From assembly GCA_027001995.1 (NCBI GenBank), contig JALTLO010000113.1, forward strand, positions 1-13,835: DNA of 13,835 nucleotides. The letters run 5' to 3'. Positions 2,015-13,835 of this stretch are shown piece after piece. The DNA is from Planctomycetota bacterium. GTDB taxonomy: Bacteria; Planctomycetota; GCA-002687715; DRQF01. Within the stretch, counting starts at the first letter, position 1, and every line of letters starts with the position of its first letter. A model generated the notes under the pieces. That model made no database searches and was not told the origin of the DNA. It saw only the letters and a program-made list of their open reading frames with translations. Made by a program: the position numbers and the translations under genes.

Positions 2015-3282
2015 GTCAGCTCTCGAGAGCGCTGGGCCGGCAGGCGTAGAGGCTCTGGTTCCGTCAAGATGACCTCAATGAAGTCTCCCACGGATGGAAC
2101 TGGCTCATTGGCTTCTATGATGATGAAACCATTGGCATCCAAGAGCCCTCTCAGATCACCGCTGCCATGCCACTCAACCTGAGAGACTTCCAGACCTCCA
2201 GGCCCCATGGTCACACGGGCTGGCAAGTGTTGAGTCCGGCGAATCGACTTGCCCCGGATGGGACGCAGGAGATTGGCTTTCGTGACCAAGGTATGAGGCC
2301 CCGCTAAACCGATGAGCCCCCGCAGAAAAGGTCGGACAAAAAGTTCAAAGGTGCAATAAGAACTGACGGGATTGCCAGGGAGACCAAAAACCCACTGCTT
2401 GGAGCCATCGTCGCGGTTGAGAAACCCAAATAGCAGAGGTTTACCTGGCTTCATGGCCACTTTCTCTATGAGCACCTCCAACCCACGATTCTTTAATTCG
2501 TGGTGAACGTGATCAAAATCTCCCATGGACACACCCCCAGAGAGAATCAGAACATCTGCTTCAAGCCCTTCTTCGATAGCTCTCCGGGTCGCTTCTTGGC
2601 TATCAGCGATAATTCCAGCGAATTGAGCGTCAATCCCAAGGCCAAGGGCTCGCACTTGAGCAGCCAGCATCGAACCATTGGATTCGCGGATCTGTCCTGG
2701 GCCCGGTTTGCCCCCTCCTGGAGGCACAAGCTCATCGCCCGTGGCATGAATTCTGACAGTGGGCTGACGATAGACCAACACTTGGGATTGCCCCAAAGTC
2801 GCCAGCATACCAATCTCAATGGGACGCATGGTTATCCCTTGATGAAGAATCACTTCCCCCACCTGCATGTCTTGGCCACAAGGCGCGACATTCTGTCCCA
2901 GGGCACAGCCCTCTTGGATCTCCACCCGTCCGTCGTCCAACTCCTTGGTTTTCTCCACCATTTGAACGCAATCGGCCCCATCTGGGACCGGTGCACCGGT
3001 CATGATCTTGACCCCTTGACCAGGGCCGATTTCACCAGAAAACACCTCCCCCGCCGGGACAATTCCACAAATTTCGATCACCCCGCCAGTCTGAGGGACT
3101 TCATCAGCCCGAAAGGCGTAACCATCCATGGCGGAGCGATTAAACGGGGGAATGTTCATGTCAGCCAGCACATCGTGAGCCAAAACACGCCCCAGGGCCC
3201 GATCCAAGGAGACGGACTCTGTGGCTGTTATCTGAGGAGTAGCCCCGGCCAAGACCCGAAGAGCTTCATGCTTTTTCATCAT
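2011..3282 (-). CDS. moeA: Molybdopterin molybdotransferase MoeA (gephyrin-like)
   Basis: Motifs ALGRVLA, PPFNRSAMDGYA, IMTGAPVP, TGDEL, ESNGSML, SGGVSMGDFD, MKPGKP and GLPGNPVSS; 423 aa. The start is ATG 3282 or 3279 and overlaps the upstream TGA. Confidence 0.96.
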   Translation of the reverse strand: MMKKHEALRVLAGATPQITATESVSLDRALGRVLAHDVLADMNIPPFNRSAMDGYAFRADEVPQTGGVIEICGIVPAGEVFSGEIGPGQGVKIMTGAPVPDGADCVQMVEKTKELDDGRVEIQEGCALGQNVAPCGQDMQVGEVILHQGITMRPIEIGMLATLGQSQVLVYRQPTVRIHATGDELVPPGGGKPGPGQIRESNGSMLAAQVRALGLGIDAQFAGIIADSQEATRRAIEEGLEADVLILSGGVSMGDFDHVHHELKNRGLEVLIEKVAMKPGKPLLFGFLNRDDGSKQWVFGLPGNPVSSYCTFELFVRPFLRGLIGLAGPHTLVTKANLLRPIRGKSIRRTQHLPARVTMGPGGLEVSQVEWHGSGDLRGLLDANGFIIIEANEPVPSVGDFIEVILTEPEPLRLPAQRSRELT

Positions 3283-4625
3283 GATGGATTCTCTGCTTCC
3301 TGATCCCGAATAACATCCATGAAAGACGACACCGAGAAAACCGCTCGCCCCAGCCCCGTTTCCCCATAACCCATTGGAGCGGGCAGGTTGTTGCGTTCAA
3401 AAGTCTCCCGCCAAACGCGCAAGAGACCAACGTGATAACGCAAAGATGCCGGACCTCCTCCCTTTTCCCCCAAGACACTCAAGGGTTCTGGGCACCAAGT
3501 GGTAAAACGGGGCATAACCCCCCTCGACATGAAGAATTCCAAGCCTTCCCCGGTGGAAGCCCAAGCCTCTTCTTCTGTCAGGAAGCCAAATGGCTTGGCC
3601 ATCTCGATGCCAGCAACAAAATTAGGGATCACTGAATTCTTTGGGAAGATTTCCGCGGCCTGAAGAATGCGCTCAATCCAGGTATCTCGCCCGACGTAAC
3701 GGCTCTTTCCAGGGCAGACCTTCTCGAACAGGTCTTTATCCCAGATTTCGTAGTTGGGATGATAAATTTGAATCCCCGCATCACGAATTCTCCGGACGTC
3801 GTCCGCAGGGAGAGCCTGAACCACCATCTTACCAATCCATTTGTTGGGAAATGCCTGCTCAATGGCTTCGGCATATTTGATGTAGTAGTCGGCTTCTGAT
3901 TCGCCCTTTAACTCAGAAGTGATACTCCCCCCAGTGAGGGTGTAGGCTTTCGCTTCGGACTTGGAATCGGCAATCAAGCGGAGGGCTTCAATCATGCGAT
4001 CCACAGGTTTCACCGCATTGTAAATTCGCTCTTCTTCCCTTTGCTGGCGAAAATTCCGGTTGATGTCACAAAATTGGCATTCCTCGTCTCTGCCAAAATA
4101 CTGACACATGCGAAAGACCGTGAGATAAAGGAGATACCCCCATTCGATGGTAGGTGCGGTCTCAATGAGAGGGGTCCCATCCTTCGTCTTACCACCATAG
4201 TAAGGGGGTGTTGGCGAAAAGGAGACCTCCGCCACCTCTTCCCCTGCCAGAGCCAGAACACAGCCCGTGCCTTCAGCTCCCTCACCATCGACTCGAATGA
4301 TGCGATAAGGAGAATCCGGGTTCAGGCGGACGGAAACTGTGGTTTTCGCCAAATTCTCTCGCCCTCCAAAGAAACGGATCTCTTCTGGGGCTCTGGCTTT
4401 AGAGATTTCATCCAACTGAGACAAAGGAGCCCGGTCAAAGCTAAAAATGAAATAAGATTTGCGGGCATAATCACCCACCGCCTGAAAAGCTTCAGGCTCA
4501 AAAGCCACCCCCAAACGGAGCATGTCTTCTTTGTAAACCGCTTCTGCGGGGATATCGGAAAACTCTTGGCGCACTTTCTGCACCCTTTCCCGATGTTCGC
4601 CGCCCTGATTTCTTGTGTTTTTCAT
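3279..4625 (-). CDS. Radical SAM superfamily protein of unknown function (CX8CX2C)
   Basis: C174-QYFGRDEE-C183-QF-C186 with an aromatic residue before the last Cys, a downstream TLTGG glycine motif, and NYEIWD...CPGK as in BioB-related/COG2516-like radical SAM proteins; 448 aa. Confidence 0.88.
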   Translation of the reverse strand: MKNTRNQGGEHRERVQKVRQEFSDIPAEAVYKEDMLRLGVAFEPEAFQAVGDYARKSYFIFSFDRAPLSQLDEISKARAPEEIRFFGGRENLAKTTVSVRLNPDSPYRIIRVDGEGAEGTGCVLALAGEEVAEVSFSPTPPYYGGKTKDGTPLIETAPTIEWGYLLYLTVFRMCQYFGRDEECQFCDINRNFRQQREEERIYNAVKPVDRMIEALRLIADSKSEAKAYTLTGGSITSELKGESEADYYIKYAEAIEQAFPNKWIGKMVVQALPADDVRRIRDAGIQIYHPNYEIWDKDLFEKVCPGKSRYVGRDTWIERILQAAEIFPKNSVIPNFVAGIEMAKPFGFLTEEEAWASTGEGLEFFMSRGVMPRFTTWCPEPLSVLGEKGGGPASLRYHVGLLRVWRETFERNNLPAPMGYGETGLGRAVFSVSSFMDVIRDQEAENPS

Positions 4626-4820: not shown

Positions 4821-6134
4821 ATGAAATCCGGAAATGTCGTCATCTTCCTTGCGGTCTTGCTCTTGGCTGGGTGCCAAATGGACAAAGACGAGAAGACTTC
4901 CAAAGAGAAAAAAAAATCGGGAACCTCAACGGAGGTCGAACTGGTCCGTACCGCCATGACGGAACGGGGTAGACTTCTGGCTAAGCTTGCCATCACCGCC
5001 CGAGTTGAAGCTCTGGAGCAAACAGAAATCTTGCCCAGGGTGGAAGGTACGGTGGTGGAGGTCTTCGCCGATGAAGGCGACGACGTGACCAAAGGCCAAC
5101 TCCTGGCCAAAATCGAGAGCGACGAGGCCCAGATCCGAGTTGCAGCCCAGGTGCTGGCAGTGGAACAAGCGGATTTGGCCATTTCGATGGCCAAAATTTC
5201 ACGGGATGAAACCAAATCCGTCTACAAGGCCTTCGAGACGACTCTAGCCAAAGAGCTAAATGAAAGAGAACGGGCCCTGGCCCAACACGCCAAGGGTGCC
5301 ATTTCCGACAAAGACAGAGACGCGGCGGTTTTCGTCTACAACAAGGCTTTAGCGGATAAAGAACAAGCAGCCCTCAAAGCCAAGAAAGCAGAAGAAGAGG
5401 TTCTCAATGCCAGCATCCAAAAACGCACAGCCACAAACACTTTGGATGCAGAAAAACTCAAACTGAGCTTCACTGAGTTGAGAGCCACTATCGCTGGCAA
5501 GCTCATCAAGCGCTATTTGCGTGTGGGGCAAAAGGCGACTATGGGGCAAAGCGCTTTCAAGATCGCCGACCTCTCTTCCCTTGTTGTTCGTGCCCGTATT
5601 CCGGAAACCGACTTGCGAGTCCTCAAGCAAGGCCTGCGCGTCGTCCTCAGCGCCACCGCATTCCCAGGCGTCCAATATCGAGGCACTGTCGACTTGATTG
5701 CTTCGGAAATCGACACAGACGGAGGGCAAGTCGATGTCAGAATCAAGCTGGAACCTGGCGAGCCACCGCTGCGCCCCGGCATGTTCGTGTCTGGCCACAT
5801 CGTCACCGAAGAGCGTGAAGGCTCTTTGCTGATTCCGAGAAAAGCCCTGCTCTTCGATCGAGATCGGCCCTACATTTACGTTGTTGACCATGTTGGCGAC
5901 AAACGTTGCGCCAAGAAAGTCTACCTACGCCGAGGTCTCCAAAACGCCACCCATGTGGAATATCTGCCCATGGCTGGAGAAGACGCAAAAATCAACGACC
6001 GCAGCGAAATCGTGATCGTCGGCCTTGACCGCCTCACAGATGGAGGTGCCATCGAAATTGAAGGTGAAAACGTCGAAGGAGGCCAAGGAAGCAACGGCAA
6101 AAACGACAAATCCACCAAGAGCGCGACGGAATAG
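4821..6134 (+). CDS. RND efflux periplasmic adaptor (membrane fusion protein), lipoprotein
   Basis: Signal peptide with lipobox LAG-C18. Lipoyl halves (VEGTVVEVFADEGDDVTKGQLL; RATIAGKL) flank an alpha-hairpin with a KGAIS tip. It also has LRPGMFV, LLIPRKAL and GLDRLTDG, and lies directly upstream of RND permeases. Confidence 0.95.
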   Translation: MKSGNVVIFLAVLLLAGCQMDKDEKTSKEKKKSGTSTEVELVRTAMTERGRLLAKLAITARVEALEQTEILPRVEGTVVEVFADEGDDVTKGQLLAKIESDEAQIRVAAQVLAVEQADLAISMAKISRDETKSVYKAFETTLAKELNERERALAQHAKGAISDKDRDAAVFVYNKALADKEQAALKAKKAEEEVLNASIQKRTATNTLDAEKLKLSFTELRATIAGKLIKRYLRVGQKATMGQSAFKIADLSSLVVRARIPETDLRVLKQGLRVVLSATAFPGVQYRGTVDLIASEIDTDGGQVDVRIKLEPGEPPLRPGMFVSGHIVTEEREGSLLIPRKALLFDRDRPYIYVVDHVGDKRCAKKVYLRRGLQNATHVEYLPMAGEDAKINDRSEIVIVGLDRLTDGGAIEIEGENVEGGQGSNGKNDKSTKSATE

Positions 6135-6145
6135 GAAACCAATCG

Positions 6146-9100
6146 ATGACGTCGCAAGAAGAACACGAACCAGGCATTATCCCTTTGGTAGTCGACCGTC
6201 CGGTGGCTGTGTCCATGGTTGTCTTGGCCGTAGCCGTTTTCGGCTGGATTTCGTTTCAAAAACTATCACTGACCCTGCTGCCAAAAATCAGCTACCCATC
6301 CTTAACGGTACGAACGGAGTATCCTGGATCAGCCCCGGCGGAAGTTGAAGAGCTGGTCACCAAACCTTTGGAAAGCAACTTAGCTGTCATTAGCAATCTG
6401 AACAGCTTTCGTAGTATCTCCAGAGCGGGTGTCTCCGATCTGATTTTGGAATTCGAGTGGGACACCAACATGAATTTCGCGGCCCAAGATGTCCGCGAGA
6501 AAGTCGACCAGGTCCGTGGATTCTTGCCCCAAGACGTCAAGAAACCCCTGCTCCTCAAATACGACCCCACTTTAGACCCCATCATGAGATTAGGGCTCTA
6601 TGGCGAACTGGACTTAGAGCGCATTCGCTACTACGGCGAAGAGAAAATCAAAAAGGAGCTGGAGAGCATCCCGGGGGTGGCCGCCATCAAAGTGCGGGGA
6701 GGATTCGAATCCGAAATCCGCATCGACATCAGTGAGATTTCTCTTCAGCGCAACGCCCTCACCATCGGCGAGATCCAACAACGGCTCTCAGAAGAAAACA
6801 TCAACTTAGCCAGTGGACTCCTACGGGAAGGAGACACGGAATATTTGGTGCGCACACTCAACGAGTTCAAGAGCGTTGAAGAAATCGCAGACTTGGTAGT
6901 GGCCGCTCGCAACAACAGCTACATCCGCCTCAAAGATGTGGCGAAAGTTCACCGAGCCAACAAAGAAGCGGATGTCATCACCCGCATCGAGGGCCAGCCC
7001 AGCGTTGAGATTGCGATTTTCAAAGAGGACGCAGCCAACATTGTCCAGGTCAGCAAGTTGGTCAAGATCAAGTTGTTCGGAGCCGACTTTGCCAAGCGCC
7101 TCAAAGACGGCGTTGTGGCACCCCGGACCGAGGACAACAAGAAAGTCAAAAAGGGCAAAGAACTGGAAGCCCTTGCGGCAGCGAAACCAATAACGGAGAC
7201 CCTGCCTGCAGGCATCCACATTCGGTTGCTTTCCGACCAAAGTCGCTTCATTCAAAGTTCGATCAAAGAAGTCCAGACCTCGGGCATCATCGGTGCCATC
7301 GTCGCTATCTTAGTGCTTTTGGTTTTCCTCAAGCGCATTGTCTCCACTTTAGTCATCGCCATCGCCATTCCTATTTCCATCATCGCCACATTCGGACCGA
7401 TGATGCAATTCGATGTCAGTCTCAACATCATGTCCTTGGGAGGATTGGCCTTAGGCATTGGCATGCTGGTGGATGCGAGCATTGTTGTTTTGGAGTCGAT
7501 CGCCCGCTGCCGAGACGAAGGTGACAGCCTCAGAGACGCGGCTATCCGGGGAACAAGAGAAGTGGGAGGTGCGGTGGTTGCCAGTGTACTCACCACCATC
7601 GCCGTTTTCTTACCCATCGTCTTCGTCGAAGGAATTGCTGGCGAGATCTTCAAGGACCAGTCGCTGACAGTGGTTTTCTCTCTGTTGGCTTCCTTAGCTG
7701 TGGCGCTTTTCTTCATTCCCATGTTGGCAGCCCGCCCCTTTTCAGAAGGGAATCTTGGCAAGCGCCGATCTTTGAAGCAGTACGGTGGTGATGTTTGGCG
7801 ACTCCTCAAGACACGTTGCTTTTTGTCTTGGCCTTGGGTCTTGGGCCTAATTTCTTGGTTCAAAAACGCTGGCCCCGTCAAAAGGGTCTTCGCGGCCTTG
7901 GTGTTACTGCCTCTTTTGCCAATCACAGTCCTCATTGAGCTGGTTGCCAAGGTTCCTTTCATCGCCATTGTCGGCATTTTGCTGGTGATCAAAGTCGTCG
8001 TTGGTGTCCCTGCCATGGTGCTGGCTGTTCCGGCCAAGGCTTTCTCTAAGATTTTCGACGGGGGCTATGCCCTTGTTGAAGCCAGTTACTCTCTGGCACT
8101 GAAGGCCGCTCTAAGCCAACGGGCCCTGGTTTTACTGGGTGCCATTGCGCTCACAGGATTCGCATGGAAGCTGATGGATCAAGTTGGCATCGATCTCATC
8201 CCCGAAATGCATAGCGGCGAGATCATTGTTGAAAGCCAAAGACCCGTGGGTACGTCTCTCGCGAGCAACGGTCGTCTCACTCTCACTATGGAAGAAACCC
8301 TCATTGCAATGAAGGAGGCGGGCAAGTTTGACGGTCGAGGTATGTCTTCGTCTATGGGGGTGGCCCGGGACGAAATCGCACCGGCAGGAGACGGTCCCCA
8401 CACAGCAAAGATTTATCTGAAGCTTCCGGTCGGCCCGGACATGGCTTCAAAAGAAGCCGAAGTGATTGAGACCCTCCGAGAAGGTCTGGCCAAAAAGGTC
8501 GGTTCCGGCGACTTGGCATTTACAACGCCCAAGCTCTTCACTTTCAAGAACCCCTTAGAAGTGCAGGTTTTGGGAGACAGCTTAGAAAAAGTGGGCGTGA
8601 TCGCTGATCGCTTGGAAACCCGCTTGATGGCCATGGACACCTTGACCGATGTGCGATCTTCCGCAGAGCAAGGAAGTCCCGAATTCGTCATCAAGTATGA
8701 TCGCCTCAAGCTGGCTGATCGGGGTTTGAAACTGACGGACGCTGCCAACGTCCTACGAGACAAAATAAAGGGAGTTATTCCAACTCGCTATTCGGAGACA
8801 GCGGAAGGCCGAAAAATTGATGTCTTGGTCAAGATCCCTGACGAACTTGTTGCTTCCGCCAGCGCCCTGAGAGATATCGAAGTCGCCAAGGTCAACGATA
8901 AAAGCGTGCGCTTAGGTGAAGTTGCTACAGTCCTTCAAGGCCGAGGCCCCTCGGAGGTCCGACGTATCGGTGGTCAAAGAGGTGTTATCATCACAGCCGT
9001 TCCCGACGGTGTCGACCTTAAAAATGCGGCCAACCAGATTCGCGAACATGTAGAAGACATGCGGCGAGAAGACCCAAAGAGCTTTCAAGACATTGTCGTT

Positions 9101-9667
9101 AAGGTTGGCGGACAAAGCCAAGAGGCCGACAAGTCAACCAAAGAGCTTCTTTTCGCCTTACTCTTAGCCATGATTTTGGTCTACATCGTCATGGCCTCTC
9201 AATTCGAGTCTCTTCTGGATCCTTTAGTTATCATGATTTCCAGTGTTTTCGCTGGGGTCGGCGCTGTTTTTGCTCTCGTCTTGCTGGACATTGCAGCCAG
9301 TGTTGTGGTCTTCATTGGACTCATCATGTTGGCAGGCATCGTGGTCAATAACGCCATCGTACTCATTGACAGCATTAACCGCCTCCAACGAATCCATGGG
9401 CTCAGTCGCAAAGAGGCCATCTTTAAGGGAGGAAAGATGCGTTTGCGGCCCATTCTCATGACCACCCTCACGACGGTTTTAGGCCTTCTACCCATGGCTC
9501 TGTCAACGGGAGAAGGGGCTGAGATGCGTATGCCCATGGCGGTAACCGTCATTGCTGGTCTTTCCCTGAGCACCATCCTGACCTTGATCATCATCCCGGT
9601 GGTCTATTCCGCGGCCCACGGTTCCATCGACTCTTTGAAGAATCTGCTGAAGGGAGAAGAAGCATGA
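6146..9667 (+). CDS. RND efflux permease subunit 1 (AcrB/AcrD/AcrF family)
   Basis: RPVAV N-terminus, YPGSAPAEVEELVTKPLE, LNIMSLGGLALGIGMLVDASIVVLE (TM4), SQFES, GIVVNNAIVLID (TM10) and RLRPILMTTLTTVLGLLPMAL (TM11); 1173 aa. Confidence 0.96.
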   Translation: MTSQEEHEPGIIPLVVDRPVAVSMVVLAVAVFGWISFQKLSLTLLPKISYPSLTVRTEYPGSAPAEVEELVTKPLESNLAVISNLNSFRSISRAGVSDLILEFEWDTNMNFAAQDVREKVDQVRGFLPQDVKKPLLLKYDPTLDPIMRLGLYGELDLERIRYYGEEKIKKELESIPGVAAIKVRGGFESEIRIDISEISLQRNALTIGEIQQRLSEENINLASGLLREGDTEYLVRTLNEFKSVEEIADLVVAARNNSYIRLKDVAKVHRANKEADVITRIEGQPSVEIAIFKEDAANIVQVSKLVKIKLFGADFAKRLKDGVVAPRTEDNKKVKKGKELEALAAAKPITETLPAGIHIRLLSDQSRFIQSSIKEVQTSGIIGAIVAILVLLVFLKRIVSTLVIAIAIPISIIATFGPMMQFDVSLNIMSLGGLALGIGMLVDASIVVLESIARCRDEGDSLRDAAIRGTREVGGAVVASVLTTIAVFLPIVFVEGIAGEIFKDQSLTVVFSLLASLAVALFFIPMLAARPFSEGNLGKRRSLKQYGGDVWRLLKTRCFLSWPWVLGLISWFKNAGPVKRVFAALVLLPLLPITVLIELVAKVPFIAIVGILLVIKVVVGVPAMVLAVPAKAFSKIFDGGYALVEASYSLALKAALSQRALVLLGAIALTGFAWKLMDQVGIDLIPEMHSGEIIVESQRPVGTSLASNGRLTLTMEETLIAMKEAGKFDGRGMSSSMGVARDEIAPAGDGPHTAKIYLKLPVGPDMASKEAEVIETLREGLAKKVGSGDLAFTTPKLFTFKNPLEVQVLGDSLEKVGVIADRLETRLMAMDTLTDVRSSAEQGSPEFVIKYDRLKLADRGLKLTDAANVLRDKIKGVIPTRYSETAEGRKIDVLVKIPDELVASASALRDIEVAKVNDKSVRLGEVATVLQGRGPSEVRRIGGQRGVIITAVPDGVDLKNAANQIREHVEDMRREDPKSFQDIVVKVGGQSQEADKSTKELLFALLLAMILVYIVMASQFESLLDPLVIMISSVFAGVGAVFALVLLDIAASVVVFIGLIMLAGIVVNNAIVLIDSINRLQRIHGLSRKEAIFKGGKMRLRPILMTTLTTVLGLLPMALSTGEGAEMRMPMAVTVIAGLSLSTILTLIIIPVVYSAAHGSIDSLKNLLKGEEA

Positions 9668-12600
9668 GCCCGATGGAAAGATTCGTTTCTATCACCCTGA
9701 AGCGACCAGTCACAGTGCTCATGCTCTTGTGCTCCACCATCCTCATCGGCGTCTTAGCCCAACTCAACTTGCCCTTGGAGTTGTTGCCATCCGGCTTTCA
9801 AAAGAGTTCCGTCTCCATTGACATCCCTGTACCCAACTCCAACCCCATTGAAGTGGAAGAGCAGGTGACCCGCCCCACTGAAGATGTCATTCGGCAGATG
9901 TCCGGGTTAGAAGAAATCGAAACGCGCTCCAGCAAGAACTCCAGCCATATCAATCTTCAATTCAGTAAGGGACGCAATCCCGACGAAGCCTTTGCTGAGG
10001 TGCGTGATCTCATGGAGATTGCCAAACTATCCTGGCCCGACGATGTCCAGGACTACCGCACTTTCCGCTTCAACTTGGACACGGATATACCTGTCCTCAG
10101 TTTTGGTGTGCTCTTAGACAAATGGGAATCTGACACTTCATTCGTCCTCGACGAGAAAGTCACCAAAGTACTGGAATCTGTCGATGGCGTGGCTCGGGTC
10201 AACGCCATGGGAATCGTGGAAGAGTCAATCCGCATCTTCGTCAACAAGGAGAAAGCCCGGGCTTTGGGCATTTCTCTGTTCGAGCTAGCTCAAACCTTGG
10301 GTGGCGACAACCGAGACGTCATCGGAGGACGCATCAAAGAAGGCGATCGCTACTTCTACCTCCGGTCCTTGGGCCGCTTCGCGAACCTGGAGGAGTTAGA
10401 AAACTATCCCATTCGCCGGGACGTGAAGATGAAAGACGTGGCAGAAATCGTGGCCGCCAAGTCCTTTCGCGACCGGGTCTTCCGCCTCAACGGCAGCCGC
10501 GCTGTTTGGTTTCAAGTTTACAAGGAATCCAGTGCCAACACCGTCCAAGTTTGCAAAGCCATCAAACGAACCCTCGAAGAGAAAATCAAGGTCGACCCGC
10601 GTTTGATCGAAAAGGAATGGTCTTGGTTTCAAAGTGACAACCAAAGCACGGGGGCCATCATCACAGATGCCCTCTCTGGCTTAGTCCGCTCGGCTCTCAT
10701 CGGAGCTCTTCTGGCGATCATCCCCCTATTCATCTTCTTGCGCCGTCTGCGGATGACCCTGATTATCATGTTAGCCATCCCCTCGTCTTTGTTGATCACC
10801 CTGGGTTGTATTTACTTCACCGGTGGCTCCCTCAACCTTTTGTCTATGATGGGCATCACCATTGCCATTGGTATGTTGGTTGACAACTCTATCGTTGTAG
10901 TCGAGAACATTTTCAGCAAACGACAATCTGGTTTGGGAGCTCAAGCAGCGGCTCTAAAAGGCACTTCAGAAGTGGCCTTAGCTGTGGTCTTGGCCACCCT
11001 CACCACCATCGCAGCCTTTTTGCCTCTCATTTTCATGGATGCCAGTGCCCAGGCTGCTTTCTTCGCCGAAGGGGTGGGATTGCCGGTTTGCTACGCGGTC
11101 TTGGCCTCCCTCTTGGTGGCTCTTTTCTTCATTCCTTTGGCCACGGTCTTTCTCTATCGCGACAAACCTGGAGACGACCCGAACCGGAGTTTCTACCAAG
11201 ATGCCCGTGCATGTTTGGCGGGCAACAACGACTCCATGAGTAAGAAGTTCGCTATTCTCGCCCTGCCATTGGCACCTTTTTACTTTTTCTCAGACCTATC
11301 TCTCAAAGCGATCTCCCAACTTGAGCGTTTCCAGGCCTGGGTCGTCAGCAGAGCCCTGAAACAGCGGTTCTTGGGGTTACTCATTATCTTTGGTGCAACA
11401 ATCGCCCTGACGTCGGCTATCGCTCCCCGGGCGAAGTTTGTCAGTTCCGACGACGACTCCGGTGGTTTTCTCAAGATCGACGTGGAGCTCGACAACAACT
11501 ACACACTGGGAGATGCCAATGTCGTCTTCACCCAGGTGTTTAACAAGCTGCAAGAAGACTGGGACAAATTCGGATTCACTTTCAGCTACATGGTCTTCGG
11601 CAAAGAAGGCGGCCAGATCACCGCCGCCCTCGACAATCAAGATGGCGAATACACCAAGATGGTGAGCGAAGAATTAGCCAAGACAATGCCGGAAATCCCA
11701 GGAGCCCGAGTTCGAGTAGGAATTGAGCGCAAGAACGCCGAGGCTTCAAACCTAGACATCCAAGTTTTTGGTGAAGAAGTCAAAGTCTTGACTCGCATCA
11801 GTGAAGATCTACGGGAGAAATTAGAGGCCGTCGAAGGAATCACCCGGGTCTCCGGCGGTGCCGATCGCCGCACAGAAGAAATCATCATTCGCCCCAACCG
11901 CGAGCGGATGCAATTCTTTGGCGTCGAACCAAGGACGCTCATGGGAACGGTTCAATACGGCATTCGAGGCCAAAGACTACCCGACTTCCATTTCGGCGAT
12001 CAGAAGATGCAAATGATCATCGAATTCGAGAATGTTGGTGACACGACAGTCAACGACCTGAAAAGAATGGGGATCTGGTCCTCCACCACGAACCAGACCC
12101 AACCTCTGTCCAACTTTGCTGACATCCACTACGCCAAGGGCTTTGGTACCATTCACAAGAGCAATGGACAATCATCGGTCCATCTGATTGCCGAAACCAT
12201 CGACGGCAAAAGTAAAGAAGTCACTGGGGCTGCTGCCCAGGTCTTGGCCGACTACGATCTTCCCAAGGGATATACTTGGCGGGAAACCTCCAACGAAGAC
12301 CTCAAGGATGAGTATATGCAGATCATCTCCACGGTCGTCTTGGCAGTTGTCCTCATTTTGCTGCTCATGGGTGTCCTTTTTGAGTCAATCATGTTGCCTC
12401 CAGCGGTCTTTGCCACTATTCCATTCGCTTTAGTTGGAGCCTTTTGGTTCTTGGTGCTAACGGACAGCCCCGTTGACATGATGAGCATGATTGGCGGCAT
12501 AATTTTGGTGGGCATCGTGGTCAATAACGGCATCGTGTTCATGGACGCTGCCCATCGGAGCGTCCTGGACGGCATGCCCCGCACAGAAGCTCTTATCTCT

Positions 12601-12876
12601 GCAGGCCGCCGCCGACTCCGTCCCATCTTGATGACGACAGCCACCACCATCGTCGGTTTGGCTCCTATGGCCGTGACCAAATCCACCAGTGGTTTTGTTT
12701 CCTACGAATCCATGGCCCGAGGTGTCATCGGCGGTCTCACCATATCCACTCTCGCTACTCTGATCGTTGTTCCCATCTTCTACAGCCTATTCGACGACCT
12801 GCGCAAAGTCTTAGGAGAAGCCTGCCGCGTCATCGTCGGCAGCGGCCGCAGTGCCCAAGGACTCAACCAACGTTAA
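9664..12876 (+). CDS. RND efflux permease subunit 2 (AcrB/AcrD/AcrF family)
   Basis: KRPVTV, EVEEQVTRPTE, LNLLSMMGITIAIGMLVDNSIVVVEN, GIVVNNGIVFMD and RLRPILMTTATTIVGLAPM; 1070 aa. ATGA overlap with permease 1. Confidence 0.96.
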   Translation: MSPMERFVSITLKRPVTVLMLLCSTILIGVLAQLNLPLELLPSGFQKSSVSIDIPVPNSNPIEVEEQVTRPTEDVIRQMSGLEEIETRSSKNSSHINLQFSKGRNPDEAFAEVRDLMEIAKLSWPDDVQDYRTFRFNLDTDIPVLSFGVLLDKWESDTSFVLDEKVTKVLESVDGVARVNAMGIVEESIRIFVNKEKARALGISLFELAQTLGGDNRDVIGGRIKEGDRYFYLRSLGRFANLEELENYPIRRDVKMKDVAEIVAAKSFRDRVFRLNGSRAVWFQVYKESSANTVQVCKAIKRTLEEKIKVDPRLIEKEWSWFQSDNQSTGAIITDALSGLVRSALIGALLAIIPLFIFLRRLRMTLIIMLAIPSSLLITLGCIYFTGGSLNLLSMMGITIAIGMLVDNSIVVVENIFSKRQSGLGAQAAALKGTSEVALAVVLATLTTIAAFLPLIFMDASAQAAFFAEGVGLPVCYAVLASLLVALFFIPLATVFLYRDKPGDDPNRSFYQDARACLAGNNDSMSKKFAILALPLAPFYFFSDLSLKAISQLERFQAWVVSRALKQRFLGLLIIFGATIALTSAIAPRAKFVSSDDDSGGFLKIDVELDNNYTLGDANVVFTQVFNKLQEDWDKFGFTFSYMVFGKEGGQITAALDNQDGEYTKMVSEELAKTMPEIPGARVRVGIERKNAEASNLDIQVFGEEVKVLTRISEDLREKLEAVEGITRVSGGADRRTEEIIIRPNRERMQFFGVEPRTLMGTVQYGIRGQRLPDFHFGDQKMQMIIEFENVGDTTVNDLKRMGIWSSTTNQTQPLSNFADIHYAKGFGTIHKSNGQSSVHLIAETIDGKSKEVTGAAAQVLADYDLPKGYTWRETSNEDLKDEYMQIISTVVLAVVLILLLMGVLFESIMLPPAVFATIPFALVGAFWFLVLTDSPVDMMSMIGGIILVGIVVNNGIVFMDAAHRSVLDGMPRTEALISAGRRRLRPILMTTATTIVGLAPMAVTKSTSGFVSYESMARGVIGGLTISTLATLIVVPIFYSLFDDLRKVLGEACRVIVGSGRSAQGLNQR

Positions 12877-13043
12877 TCTGTGGCCGAGCAAATAAATGGA
12901 CGGAGACAGGCCAAGTCAGCCTTCCGGTTCTACGTCGGTGACTGACATCGAGCTCGTCAACGCCCGGAATTCGAATGGACCTCGGGCGCAAGACGGACAA
13001 AAAATGTGTTGACGACAACTATCTGAAGGTCGCCCCCTCGTGT

Positions 13044-13321
13044 CTATTCGATCGTTAATTGAATCGCGTTGCTTATGGCGACGGGCGCCCCATTGGCGCC
13101 GGTTGTTCCCATGACACACTGAAACGTCGTCAGGATGCCTGGAGGCAAGTTCGGCAAGATGACGCCAAATTCGCCATCGCCGCTGAAACCCGTATTAAAG
13201 AATGGATTAGCGCCGGTGCCAAGGTTCCCGTCCGCAAGAACTTCGATCCCCGTGGGAATCCCATGAACGTCCAATGCCCCGCCGAGGTCCAAAGATCCAA
13301 GAATTGGATAGGACTCCGCCC
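13044..13321 (-). pseudogene. 3' remnant of a gene, probably the C-terminal beta-rich domain of a secreted protein, truncated by the adjacent element
   Basis: Protein-like Gly/Pro-rich segment SYPILGSLDLGG...LPNLPPGILTTFQCV...ISNAIQLTIE* ending at TAG 13044-13046. The track's TTG start (13367) lies inside a hairpin of the structured element, and the first ~15 aa are atypical. Confidence 0.55.
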
Positions 13322-13494
13322 GTGAAGAGCCCTTTTTTCGCCACGGTCTTTGAGGCTCGGTTGCCAACTGACCTCATTTATCTTGGCTGTCGGCATCCGA
13401 GGTATGCCTCTTAAACCTCGGGGGTTTTGGGGGCGGAGCCCCCATCCTTCTTGGCACCGAAGGTGCCGTCATCTAGAAAAAAAGAGGCCTTCAC
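13322..13494. other. Highly structured non-coding element: outer inverted repeat, 4 hairpins and a candidate pseudoknot
   Basis: Outer IR GTGAAGAGCCCTTTTTT (13322-13338) / AAAAAAAGAGGCCTTCAC (13477-13494). Hairpins: TGAGGcTCGGTT-gcc-AACTGACCTCA (13351-13376), GGCAT-N7-ATGCC (13392-13408), TGGGGGC-GGA-GCCCCCA (13428-13444) and GGCACC-GAA-GGTGCC (13453-13467). Confidence 0.7.
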
Positions 13495-13503
13495 TTCCAG
13501 CTC

Positions 13504-13531
13504 TTGACAAGCGTTCAGCGAAGGCCAAAGT
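13504..13531 (+). promoter_or_regulatory. Candidate promoter for the Cys-rich ORF
   Basis: Perfect TTGACA at 13504-13509. Only a weak -10 (CAAAGT, 13526-13531, 16-nt spacer). Confidence 0.3.
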
Positions 13532-13561
13532 CTCTGGTACTTGAACTCCGGAGACCAAACC

Positions 13562-13835
13562 TTGTCACAAACATGGCCGCCAAAATCCAGCCTTTGGGCT
13601 CTTCTATTCGAAATTGACCTAGAATTTCGCGATCAGGTTAGGTTAGCCGGGTGCCAACACTGTGGCGGCAAGCTTCATCAAGCGAACTTTATGCGCAAGC
13701 CCCGAGGCAACACCCAGGATCTCGAACCGCATCACAAACTCCGATTTGGCTTATGCTGTGCCGAATCTGGCTGCCGTCGTCGAGTATTGCCTCCTTCATC
13801 TCGCTTTCTTGGTCGCCGGGTCTACTTAGGCATTA
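13562..13835 (+). CDS. Cys-rich putative Zn-binding protein of the type found upstream of DDE integrase/ExeA-like ATPase genes (partial, runs off right edge)
   Basis: Not in the ORF track. GGAG (13550-13553) lies 8 nt before TTG 13562. It translates open to the edge as MSQTWPPKSSLWALLFEIDLEFRDQVRLAGCQHCGGKLHQANFMRKPRGNTQDLEPHHKLRFGLCCAESGCRRRVLPPSSRFLGRRVYLGI, with CxxCGG-LH, RKPRG and CCxxxGCRRR-PPS-RFLGRRVY. The family link is from recall, not a search. Confidence 0.8.
   Translation, partial: MSQTWPPKSSLWALLFEIDLEFRDQVRLAGCQHCGGKLHQANFMRKPRGNTQDLEPHHKLRFGLCCAESGCRRRVLPPSSRFLGRRVYLGI

What the first reader, a model, noticed from the sequence alone, without database searches (positions are those of the whole stretch)
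13322..13494. ~173-nt multi-stem structured element at the probable end of a poorly characterised mobile element
Seen: most of this stretch can be paired. A ~16-bp outer stem with two single-nt bulges (13322-13338 with 13477-13494) encloses four hairpins (13351-13376, 13392-13408, 13428-13444, 13453-13467). Hairpins 2 and 4 are degenerate copies (GGCATCCGAGGTATGCC vs GGCACCGAAGGTGCC). The mismatches in stems 1 and 4 are G.T on the + strand, which favours the + strand as the folding strand. The element sits between a truncated gene and the promoter/RBS of the Cys-rich ORF. Established: several IS families encode structured RNAs or ssDNA hairpins at their ends (IS110 bridge RNA, IS200/605 omega/reRNA and subterminal hairpins, IS91 ori/ter). 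Inference: this may be an undescribed element-encoded ncRNA or ssDNA recognition structure used with the Zn-binding protein and a downstream transposase.
Basis: partly seen in the sequence, partly recalled or inferred. Interest (0 to 1): 0.8.

Follow-up and report, generated by a model that had tools for sequence, protein, structure and literature searches.

The report
Broken transposon end with borrowed hairpins
The folded stretch is not one RNA but the clipped left end of a three-gene jumping element related to Tn6049, and it carries half of a hairpin module that also sits beside several unrelated kinds of jumping gene and that I could not find described.

Summary
The helices are in the sequence and fold better than shuffles, but the 173 nt are not one unit. 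They are the left end of a Tn6049-like transposon: Zn/HTH ORF, IS481-like DDE transposase, ExeA-like ATPase. This copy lacks the terminal 34 nt, and 13322-13331 is a remnant of a minus-strand host gene. The outer stem pairs 16/16 here but 0-10/16 in 10 other left ends, and an inverted repeat around the promoter outcompetes it. Hairpin 1 is an inverted pair of 19-bp end repeats, probably transposase sites. Hairpins 2-3 are the 'A' half of a roughly 200-nt A-B module seen beside IS3, ISL3, ISNCY and IS110 transposases at 111-138 nt spacing. It has no Rfam match. A sibling element holds the module intact in its right end; here it is split between the two ends. 47 of 51 relatives with a visible end lack module A. 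A dedicated RNA for the Zn protein is unlikely. The shared module is the real lead, though its function and folding strand are unresolved.

The parts
13044..13331 (-). 3' remnant of a host gene (C-terminal domain of a large protein), cut by the element; supplies the foreign 10 nt (13322-13331) of the 'outer stem' 5' arm
   Evidence: 55% identity over 92 aa to the C-terminus of a C187 ORF, E 7e-34; not present in any other left-end copy
13332..13338 (+). First surviving bases of the transposon left end; the terminal 34 nt (TGT terminal repeat and first end repeat) are missing in this copy
   Evidence: 4 of 4 high-identity copies in G000 start matching at 13332; C134, C107 and C176 carry the intact tip, C23 an eroded one; loose ends at 13332 in runs X1, X3, X4 are the intact tip
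13340..13358 (+). 19-bp end repeat, probable transposase-binding site (site 2)
   Evidence: 18/19 and 14/19 copies in the right end, 13/19 at the intact left tip; background for >=13/19 is 0.0001
13369..13387 (-). Degenerate inverted end repeat (site 3); with site 2 it makes 'hairpin 1' and its extension
   Evidence: 11/19 here (background 0.003); a near-perfect inverted copy in G006:C274; only these site-to-site pairs survive in the 11-copy consensus, the inner stem does not
13392..13421 (.).
   Evidence: Also in a sibling right end (L157) and an IS3 end (L191); covariation not above shuffles in 10 sequences, with S2 out of register in that alignment
13420..13444 (.).
   Evidence: Recurs beside IS3, ISL3, ISNCY and IS110 transposases and alone in Roseobacter plasmid intergenic DNA
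13453..13467 (+). Hairpin 4, a lineage-specific stem with a C-GNA-G triloop on the + strand
   Evidence: A-T to G-C compensatory pair; loops GAA/GTA/GCA in G000 and G006 copies, CTA in the C176 fragment
13477..13483 (+). A-run upstream of the -35 box (UP-element-like on +; U-tail behind the promoter hairpin on -); misread as the outer stem's 3' arm
   Evidence: Kept in four G006 copies that lack the partner T-run; an A-rich stretch (>=6 of 12) precedes the top inverted repeat in 17 of 41 relatives
13486..13526 (.). Inverted repeat (10-bp arms, 21-nt spacer) around TTGACA at 13504-13509; -10-like hexamer at 13526-13531.
   Evidence: I23; P 0.90-1.00; an inverted repeat in the 130 nt upstream beats all 15 shuffles in 41 of 76 homologues without a SEC-C gene vs 2 of 19 with one (some best hits are the RBS hairpin); the promoter call is by eye, the sigma-70 scan did not list it
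13530..13555 (+). Hairpin that buries the GGAG ribosome-binding site (13550-13553)
   Evidence: -11.8 on + vs -6.5 on -; equivalent hairpin at about -43..-4 in many homologues
13562..13835 (+). 5' part of the Zn-ribbon/HTH-like first ORF of the transposon; the DDE transposase (C113:14164 on), ATPase (C134:851-1705) and right end (C134:1905) lie beyond the window
   Evidence: Five invariant Cys in 62 homologues; weak HTH hits in 19 of 62; 40% identity to the first ORF of Tn6049; 38 and 37 of 39 loci with >=3 kb downstream carry the DDE and the ATPase

Best explanation
The stretch is the clipped left end of a Tn6049-like DDE/AAA+ transposon and works mainly as double-stranded DNA. Shown: gene order, homology, true ends, end repeats in both ends, and loss of the terminal 34 nt in this copy. 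Inferred: the 19-bp repeats are transposase sites, and two of them facing each other give hairpin 1; the A-run, TTGACA and -10-like hexamer are the promoter of the three-gene operon; the inverted repeat around it is an operator, most likely for the Zn/HTH protein, or a minus-strand terminator; the RBS hairpin damps translation. This copy cannot be cut at its left end because the TGT tip is gone. The outer stem is a by-product of the junction, by chance or because pairing steered the deletion. Between the end repeats and the promoter this sub-lineage carries half of a passenger A-B structured module. My single most likely reading of that half is a DNA-level fold on the G-rich strand (C-GNA-G mini-hairpins with a fold-back G-tract) that the transposon does not need; this step is inference only.
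For: Copies break off at 13332 and carry a TGT tip. DDE 46-49% and ATPase 54% identical to Tn6049, length about 3.4 vs 3.5 kb. Ends flanked by 6-bp (3 pairs, 0.023 expected by chance) and 5-bp (1 pair, 0.094 expected) duplications in G006. End repeats in both ends. Outer stem 16/16 only here, absent from the 11-copy consensus, outcompeted by the promoter repeat. Promoter and RBS repeats family-wide. Module A absent from 47 of 51 visible ends and from Tn6049 but present beside unrelated transposases.
Against: The outer duplex is better than 99.6% of random flanks, so it is not plain noise, and intact G000 copies keep a weaker version (-10.9). Hairpins 3 and 4 and the pseudoknot-compatible helices are kept in G000 and G006 copies whose neighbouring sequence has drifted, which suggests some selection. 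The transposase sites, promoter and operator were not tested. The join of C113 to C134 rests on a 127-nt overlap inside a repeat.
Confidence: 0.78

Rival explanations
1. Module A, with module B in the right end, is a functional structured nucleic acid shared by circle-forming IS families. In this lineage the transposon ends were placed inside it, so A and B regain their order only when the ends are joined in a circle or tandem dimer. This can hold together with the best explanation.
For: A-B spacing is 111-138 nt in 12 tandem and 116-120 nt in 2 convergent loci. The B hairpin covaries: 5 of 8 pairs have double changes and a U.G pair is kept in 17 of 19. Of 12 B hits not used to build the model, 4 have A 79-93 nt upstream on the same strand. 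The contiguous unit in L157 aligns with the left end (unit 9-77; score 62.5 vs best shuffle 34.5) and with the right end (unit 130-183; 45.0 vs 38.5). Circles are reported for an IS1202-family member (10.1101/2022.12.17.520857, passage); for IS3, ISL3 and IS110 this is recalled.
Against: The A-to-B distance across a virtual junction is 291 nt, not 111-138, and no junction is in the assembly. B occurs in either orientation relative to A. The G006 right end did not beat shuffles against L157 (30 vs 36). S2 scores 4.8 vs 4.4+-0.6 for controls over 25 modules, with no strand bias (12 G.T vs 14 A.C). The B model found only 2 hits, both training sequences, in 100 sources, mostly Zn-ORF loci. 8 of 12 held-out B hits lack an intact A.
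Confidence: 0.25
2. One reading: 13322-13494 is one element-encoded RNA or ssDNA structure that works with the Zn protein and transposase.
For: z -4.2 and -6.7 against shuffles; outer duplex in the top 0.4% of random flanks; no Rfam match.
Against: The 5' arm is half host DNA; the stem is absent in 10 other copies; most Zn-ORF elements lack the region; it overlaps and loses to the promoter repeat.
Confidence: 0.04
3. Module A is a selfish or neutral REP-like repeat, spread by recombination or by an unknown nuclease into non-coding IS ends, with no role for the element.
For: A stands alone between ordinary genes in Roseobacter plasmids and twice in an anellovirus GC-rich region (PMC3819664, passage), so the hairpin can arise or spread independently. 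Its distribution in the Tn6049-like family is patchy.
Against: In G000 the A pattern occurs only in the 3 element copies. The fixed A-B spacing and the covariation in B imply constraint.
Confidence: 0.3
4. The junction at 13331/13332, and so the outer stem, is an assembly chimera.
For: The element is a multi-copy repeat, and C113 has a 10-N gap just after the window.
Against: A separately assembled contig of run X1 covers 12972-13361 with no differences at depth 7.4, like the unique flank (7.09). It has only 30 letters beyond the junction, one short of the tool's bridging rule, and X1 may be the source sample.
Confidence: 0.06

Closest known systems
Tn6049 of Cupriavidus metallidurans CH34 / P. 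aeruginosa pHS87a (PMC2864759, PMC4739549; passages read)
   Same: Order of small Cys-rich ORF, IS481-type DDE transposase and GspA/ExeA-like ATPase; 40%, 46-49% and 54% identity; about 3.4 vs 3.5 kb; short TGT...ACA ends; inverted repeat before the first ORF.
   Different: Left end about 265 nt rather than about 135-155; carries modules A and B, which the A pattern did not find in Tn6049; 5-6-bp duplications in the G006 relative vs 4 bp; Tn6049 has a fourth small ORF after the ATPase; this copy has lost its tip.
IS481 family transposases (NCBIfam NF033577)
   Same: Best family hit of the transposase fragment, E 1e-18; TGT ends.
   Different: The 245-aa fragment is far below the cut-off (67.6 vs 224 bits). 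The element has accessory Zn/HTH and ATPase genes and several end repeats, more like IS21, Mu or Tn7 ends (recalled).
IS110 bridge RNA, IS200/IS605 omega/reRNA, IS91 ori/ter
   Same: Structured non-coding DNA at an element end; module B also lies just 3' of two IS110-family genes.
   Different: The enzyme here is a DDE transposase with TIRs and target duplications; no Rfam match; no guide-like variable segment was seen; the region is dispensable in most relatives.
Class I intrastrand purine triplex motifs (PMC4666352, passages) and C-GNA-G DNA mini-hairpins (PMC13037366, PMC3201870; abstract starts only)
   Same: On the + strand module A has the class I order (third strand, purine strand, pyrimidine strand); hairpins 3 and 4 have C-GNA-G loops.
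   Different: The stems are 5 nt, below that paper's 6-nt minimum; G006 copies have a 2-nt loop in hairpin 3; folding was not tested.

Membership tests
Tn6049-like transposon | Small Cys-rich ORF, IS481-type DDE gene and GspA/ExeA-like ATPase in one operon | tested here: met
   (the C113-C134 join rests on a 127-nt overlap)
Tn6049-like transposon | Short imperfect terminal repeats TGT...ACA | tested here: met
   Intact G000 copies and right end C134:1905; absent from the window copy itself, which is truncated
Tn6049-like transposon | Short target duplication (4 bp in Tn6049) | tested here: inconclusive
   G006 relatives show 6 bp (3 pairs) and 5 bp (1 pair), none of 4 bp; G000 left and right flanks gave no match by eye
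Tn6049-like transposon | Active transposition | not testable with these tools
   Many ends with different flanks imply past movement
IS481 family (NF033577) | Transposase score above the curated cut-off | tested here: inconclusive
   Only the N-terminal 245 aa were scanned: 67.6 vs 224 bits
IS110 bridge RNA system | DEDD (RuvC-like) recombinase as the element's enzyme | tested here: not met
   DDE/rve and HTH_32 hits only
IS200/IS605 or IS91 ssDNA/omega systems | HUH transposase or TnpB/IscB gene; no TIRs | tested here: not met
   The element has three genes, none with such a hit, and has TIRs
Any Rfam 15 family | Match at gathering score | tested here: not met
   Window, 14 loci and 13 loci: all hits below gathering score
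   0-10 of 16 pairs in 10 other left ends; absent from the consensus
   No RNA holder listed
Genome-wide REP family | Many stand-alone intergenic copies in the host genome | tested here: not met
   3 A-pattern matches in G000, all in element copies
Class I intrastrand triplex | G-tract, G-tract, C-tract order with stems of 6 nt or more | tested here: not met
   The order is met (13420-13443) but the stems are 5 nt; definition

The most novel reading that the evidence does not exclude
The A-B unit is an undescribed, functional structured nucleic acid of about 200 nt that IS3, ISL3, ISNCY/IS1202, IS110 and Tn6049-like elements have each captured. In this planctomycete lineage the transposon's own ends sit inside it, so the unit would be put back in order only at the circle or dimer junction: a stage-specific switch for a DDE/AAA+ transposon.
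Probability: 0.15. Interest if true: 0.78.

Novelty: new variant of a known kind. Interest (0 to 1): 0.4.

Why it matters
As reported, the object is a patchwork and should not be pursued as one RNA. Two things remain worth having. First, the Tn6049-like family is widespread (594 of 599 scanned metagenome stretches encode a relative) and barely studied; its end repeats, promoter repeat and Zn/HTH protein are now mapped and testable. Second, a covarying non-coding module recurs at fixed spacing in the ends of at least five unrelated IS families, and I found it neither in Rfam nor in the papers searched. If it has a function, it would be a shared accessory of transposition rather than a family-specific guide RNA.

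Tried and rejected
Rfam scans: only sub-threshold hits; the suhB hit reflects the minus-strand promoter hairpin plus U-run. blastn of the hairpin cassette against plasmids gave only short hits at E about 9; other module queries gave 20-50-nt partial hits. A strict pseudoknot pattern found 0 viral contigs. Searches were meant as two phyla but drew the same 130 genomes (2 hits), so they count once and say nothing about phylum. One search used mis-indexed columns and is discarded; one search repeats it, with S2 still out of register for the G006 rows. In one search the RBS rows (off by one) and the G006 S2 rows (MAFFT register) are not usable. I first thought wobbles in S2 marked the minus strand; a strand-neutral count did not support this. 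Tn6048 was considered and rejected (10.4 kb). AlphaFold model of the Zn protein: pLDDT 70, no PDB match at E<=0.001, only weak zinc-ribbon and homeodomain rows; no solved homologue by sequence. No RNA holder was listed for the stretch, which is no evidence either way. No RE-LE junction in the assembly. Earlier findings: no look-alikes. The repeat family at 12933-13015 was looked at and not resolved.

Full report
1. The observation. The four hairpins and the outer stem can be drawn at the stated places. The 173 nt fold better than dinucleotide shuffles on both strands: z -4.18 on +, -6.70 on -. When the region is widened to 13300-13565 or 13250-13600, the outer stem drops to P 0.00-0.10. Rfam has nothing at gathering score.

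2. The element. The window ends inside a Cys-rich ORF. The contig goes on into an IS481-like DDE transposase (NF033577 E 1e-18, below cut-off on a fragment). Across a 127-nt overlap with C134 follow the rest of the transposase, an ExeA-like ATPase and a right end at C134:1905. The first ORF is 40% identical to a small ORF on C. metallidurans pMOL28 and P. aeruginosa pHS87a, followed there by an IS481 transposase and an AAA ATPase. The papers (passages read) name this 3.5-kb element Tn6049, with a gspA-like ATPase, 12-bp TGT...ACA ends and 4-bp repeats. Our transposase is 46-49% and the ATPase 54% identical to it; our element is about 3.4 kb; 38 and 37 of 39 homologous loci with enough downstream DNA carry the DDE and ATPase genes. 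The first protein has five invariant Cys in 62 homologues, weak HTH hits in 19 of 62 and no solved relative. The host is a planctomycete according to an earlier, unchecked note on this genome.

3. The outer stem is a junction product. All 4 high-identity copies in the genome stop matching at 13332. Three of them continue into a 34-nt tip beginning TGT, as do loose contig ends in runs X1, X3 and X4. In G006 such tips pair with right ends through 6-bp (3 pairs, 0.023 expected) and 5-bp (1 pair) duplications among 6 left and 16 right ends, so these are true ends. The window copy has lost the tip, and 13322-13331 belongs to a minus-strand host gene remnant. The outer stem has 16 of 16 pairs here and 10, 7, 8, 7, 7, 7, 2, 0, 3, 3 in the 10 other left ends. 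It is absent from the consensus fold. Against this reading, only 0.4% of 19,991 random flanks pair as well. I put that down to selection of a striking case, or to a deletion steered by the hairpin (a mechanism recalled, not tested). The junction is present in a separately assembled X1 contig at single-copy depth, though with 30 rather than 31 letters past it, and X1 may be the source sample.

4. Hairpin 1 is two end repeats facing each other. A 19-bp repeat at 13340-13358 recurs in the right end (18/19, 14/19), at the intact left tip (13/19) and inverted at 13369-13387 (11/19). The background is 0.0001 for >=13 and 0.003 for >=11. One G006 copy has a near-perfect inverted site. The site-to-site pairs are kept across copies while the inner stem is not. 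Arrays of such repeats at both ends are what DDE transposases with helper ATPases bind (established for Mu, Tn7 and IS21; recalled). Binding itself is inferred.

5. What the family does conserve. In 41 of 76 distinct upstream regions without a SEC-C gene, the best inverted repeat in the last 130 nt beats all 15 shuffles, against 2 of 19 with one. It lies mostly at about -85..-40, sometimes at -43..-4 over the RBS (the window itself was matched by 1 of 15 shuffles, and many sequences are related). Mismatches in those repeats are 46 A.C to 16 G.T, a lean to the minus strand. In the window these features are 13486-13526 around TTGACA, with the A-run in front, and the RBS hairpin 13530-13555. I read them as promoter, operator or antisense terminator, and translational damper; this is inference. 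Most relatives have a short left end of about 155 nt: 47 of 51 with a visible terminal motif lack the hairpin 2-3 region. The strict pattern finds it in 4 of 66 non-SEC-C upstreams, all from G000 and G006, and in 5 of 19 SEC-C elements.

6. The borrowed module. Hairpin 3 with its extra G-tract and the adjoining helix (module A, 13392-13444) occurs in 9 of 401 genomes of the phylum by a strict pattern, with 0 for the reversed control. Away from this element it lies before ISL3 and after IS3 transposases. There it is followed by a second hairpin, module B, which our element carries in its RIGHT end. B covaries: 5 of 8 pairs have double changes in 19 sequences, and a U.G pair on the C-rich strand is kept in 17 of 19. 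The two strands have equal consensus energy. A model of B hit 9 of 141 genomes of a general sample, a lower bound since 33 candidates per genome were scored. Of 12 hits not in the training set, 4 have A 79-93 nt upstream on the same strand. Proteins from 4 of those 12 loci were scanned: ISNCY, IS3 (with IS630 next to it), IS110 (partial, below cut-off) and an ExeA-like ATPase. The A-B spacing is 111-138 nt in 12 tandem loci and 116-120 nt in 2 convergent ones. A sibling Tn6049-like right end (L157) holds the whole unit. Its first part aligns with our left end and its last part with our right end, so this lineage has the unit split between its ends in circle order. Against a function: the virtual junction gives 291 nt; no junction is assembled; the G006 right end does not beat shuffles; the pseudoknot helices are not above shuffles in 10 sequences; S2 is barely above control and shows no strand bias in 25; the B model found no new hit among 100 sources; and A alone occurs between ordinary genes in Roseobacter plasmids and in an anellovirus. 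On the + strand A has the order of a class I triplex with 5-nt stems, and hairpins 3 and 4 have C-GNA-G loops, known as very stable DNA mini-hairpins (abstract starts). B's wobble points to the other strand. The strand and the molecule (DNA or RNA) remain open.

7. Is it in print? The element type is (Tn6049). For the module: no Rfam family in 27 loci. Exact-motif searches found one paper, on the anellovirus palindrome, and none for six further motifs. Topic searches (listings only) showed nothing on it. The IS1202 preprint has no passage on non-coding structure. A 2026 preprint on non-coding clusters does not name these IS families in its main text, but its supplements are closed and could hold the motif. 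Subscription journals, including the original Tn6049 description, were not searchable.

8. Verdict. The 173-nt multi-stem element is not a real unit. It is a truncated, immobile left end of a Tn6049-like transposon: a new variant of a known kind (confidence about 0.78). The shared A-B module is real as a recurring, partly covarying sequence, apparently undescribed and of unknown use. The boldest reading, a junction-assembled switch, gets about 0.15. Overall interest 0.4.

Noticed in passing
window 13324-13330 and G000:C134:1906-1912: Read outward, the flank left of the clipped left end and the flank right of the C134 right end share 7 nt, an inverted rather than direct relation. It may be a palindromic target or chance; the two contigs are linked only through a repeat.
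   Followed up: partly
window 12897-13015: Degenerate member of a repeat family with at least 11 other copies in G000 (72-84% identity), many near contig ends; identity unresolved.
   Followed up: partly
G000:C134:1720-1870 (right end of the element): Module B with a closing stem that changes on both sides among IS3, IS110 and Tn6049-like ends, enclosing two conserved unpaired segments. A better RNA candidate than the finding itself.
   Followed up: partly
L022, L025-L030, L102, L106, L113, L120, L125 and others: A sub-group of Tn6049-like elements carries a divergently transcribed SEC-C-motif gene in the left end (21 loci), and some have a further AAA-type gene after the ATPase.
   Followed up: no
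L152 (viral contig): The GC-rich region of an anellovirus has the module A hairpin with its extra G-tract twice; probably convergent.
   Followed up: partly
G000:C134:37034-37080: The C134 copy of the Zn ORF has a short tandem duplication that changes its C-terminus, and the element is cut off before the transposase gene.
   Followed up: no
window 3279-4625 (-): 448-aa ORF with a CxxxxxxxxCxxC-type Cys cluster, radical-SAM-like by eye, with no Pfam hit at E<=1.
   Followed up: no
window 4821-12876 (+): RND-type efflux operon: a membrane-fusion-like gene and two AcrB-like genes in tandem (by eye).
   Followed up: no
L002:2308-3501 (G000:C134): RuvB-like AAA domain preceded by an HNH-like segment, next to the C134 left-end copy.
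   Followed up: no
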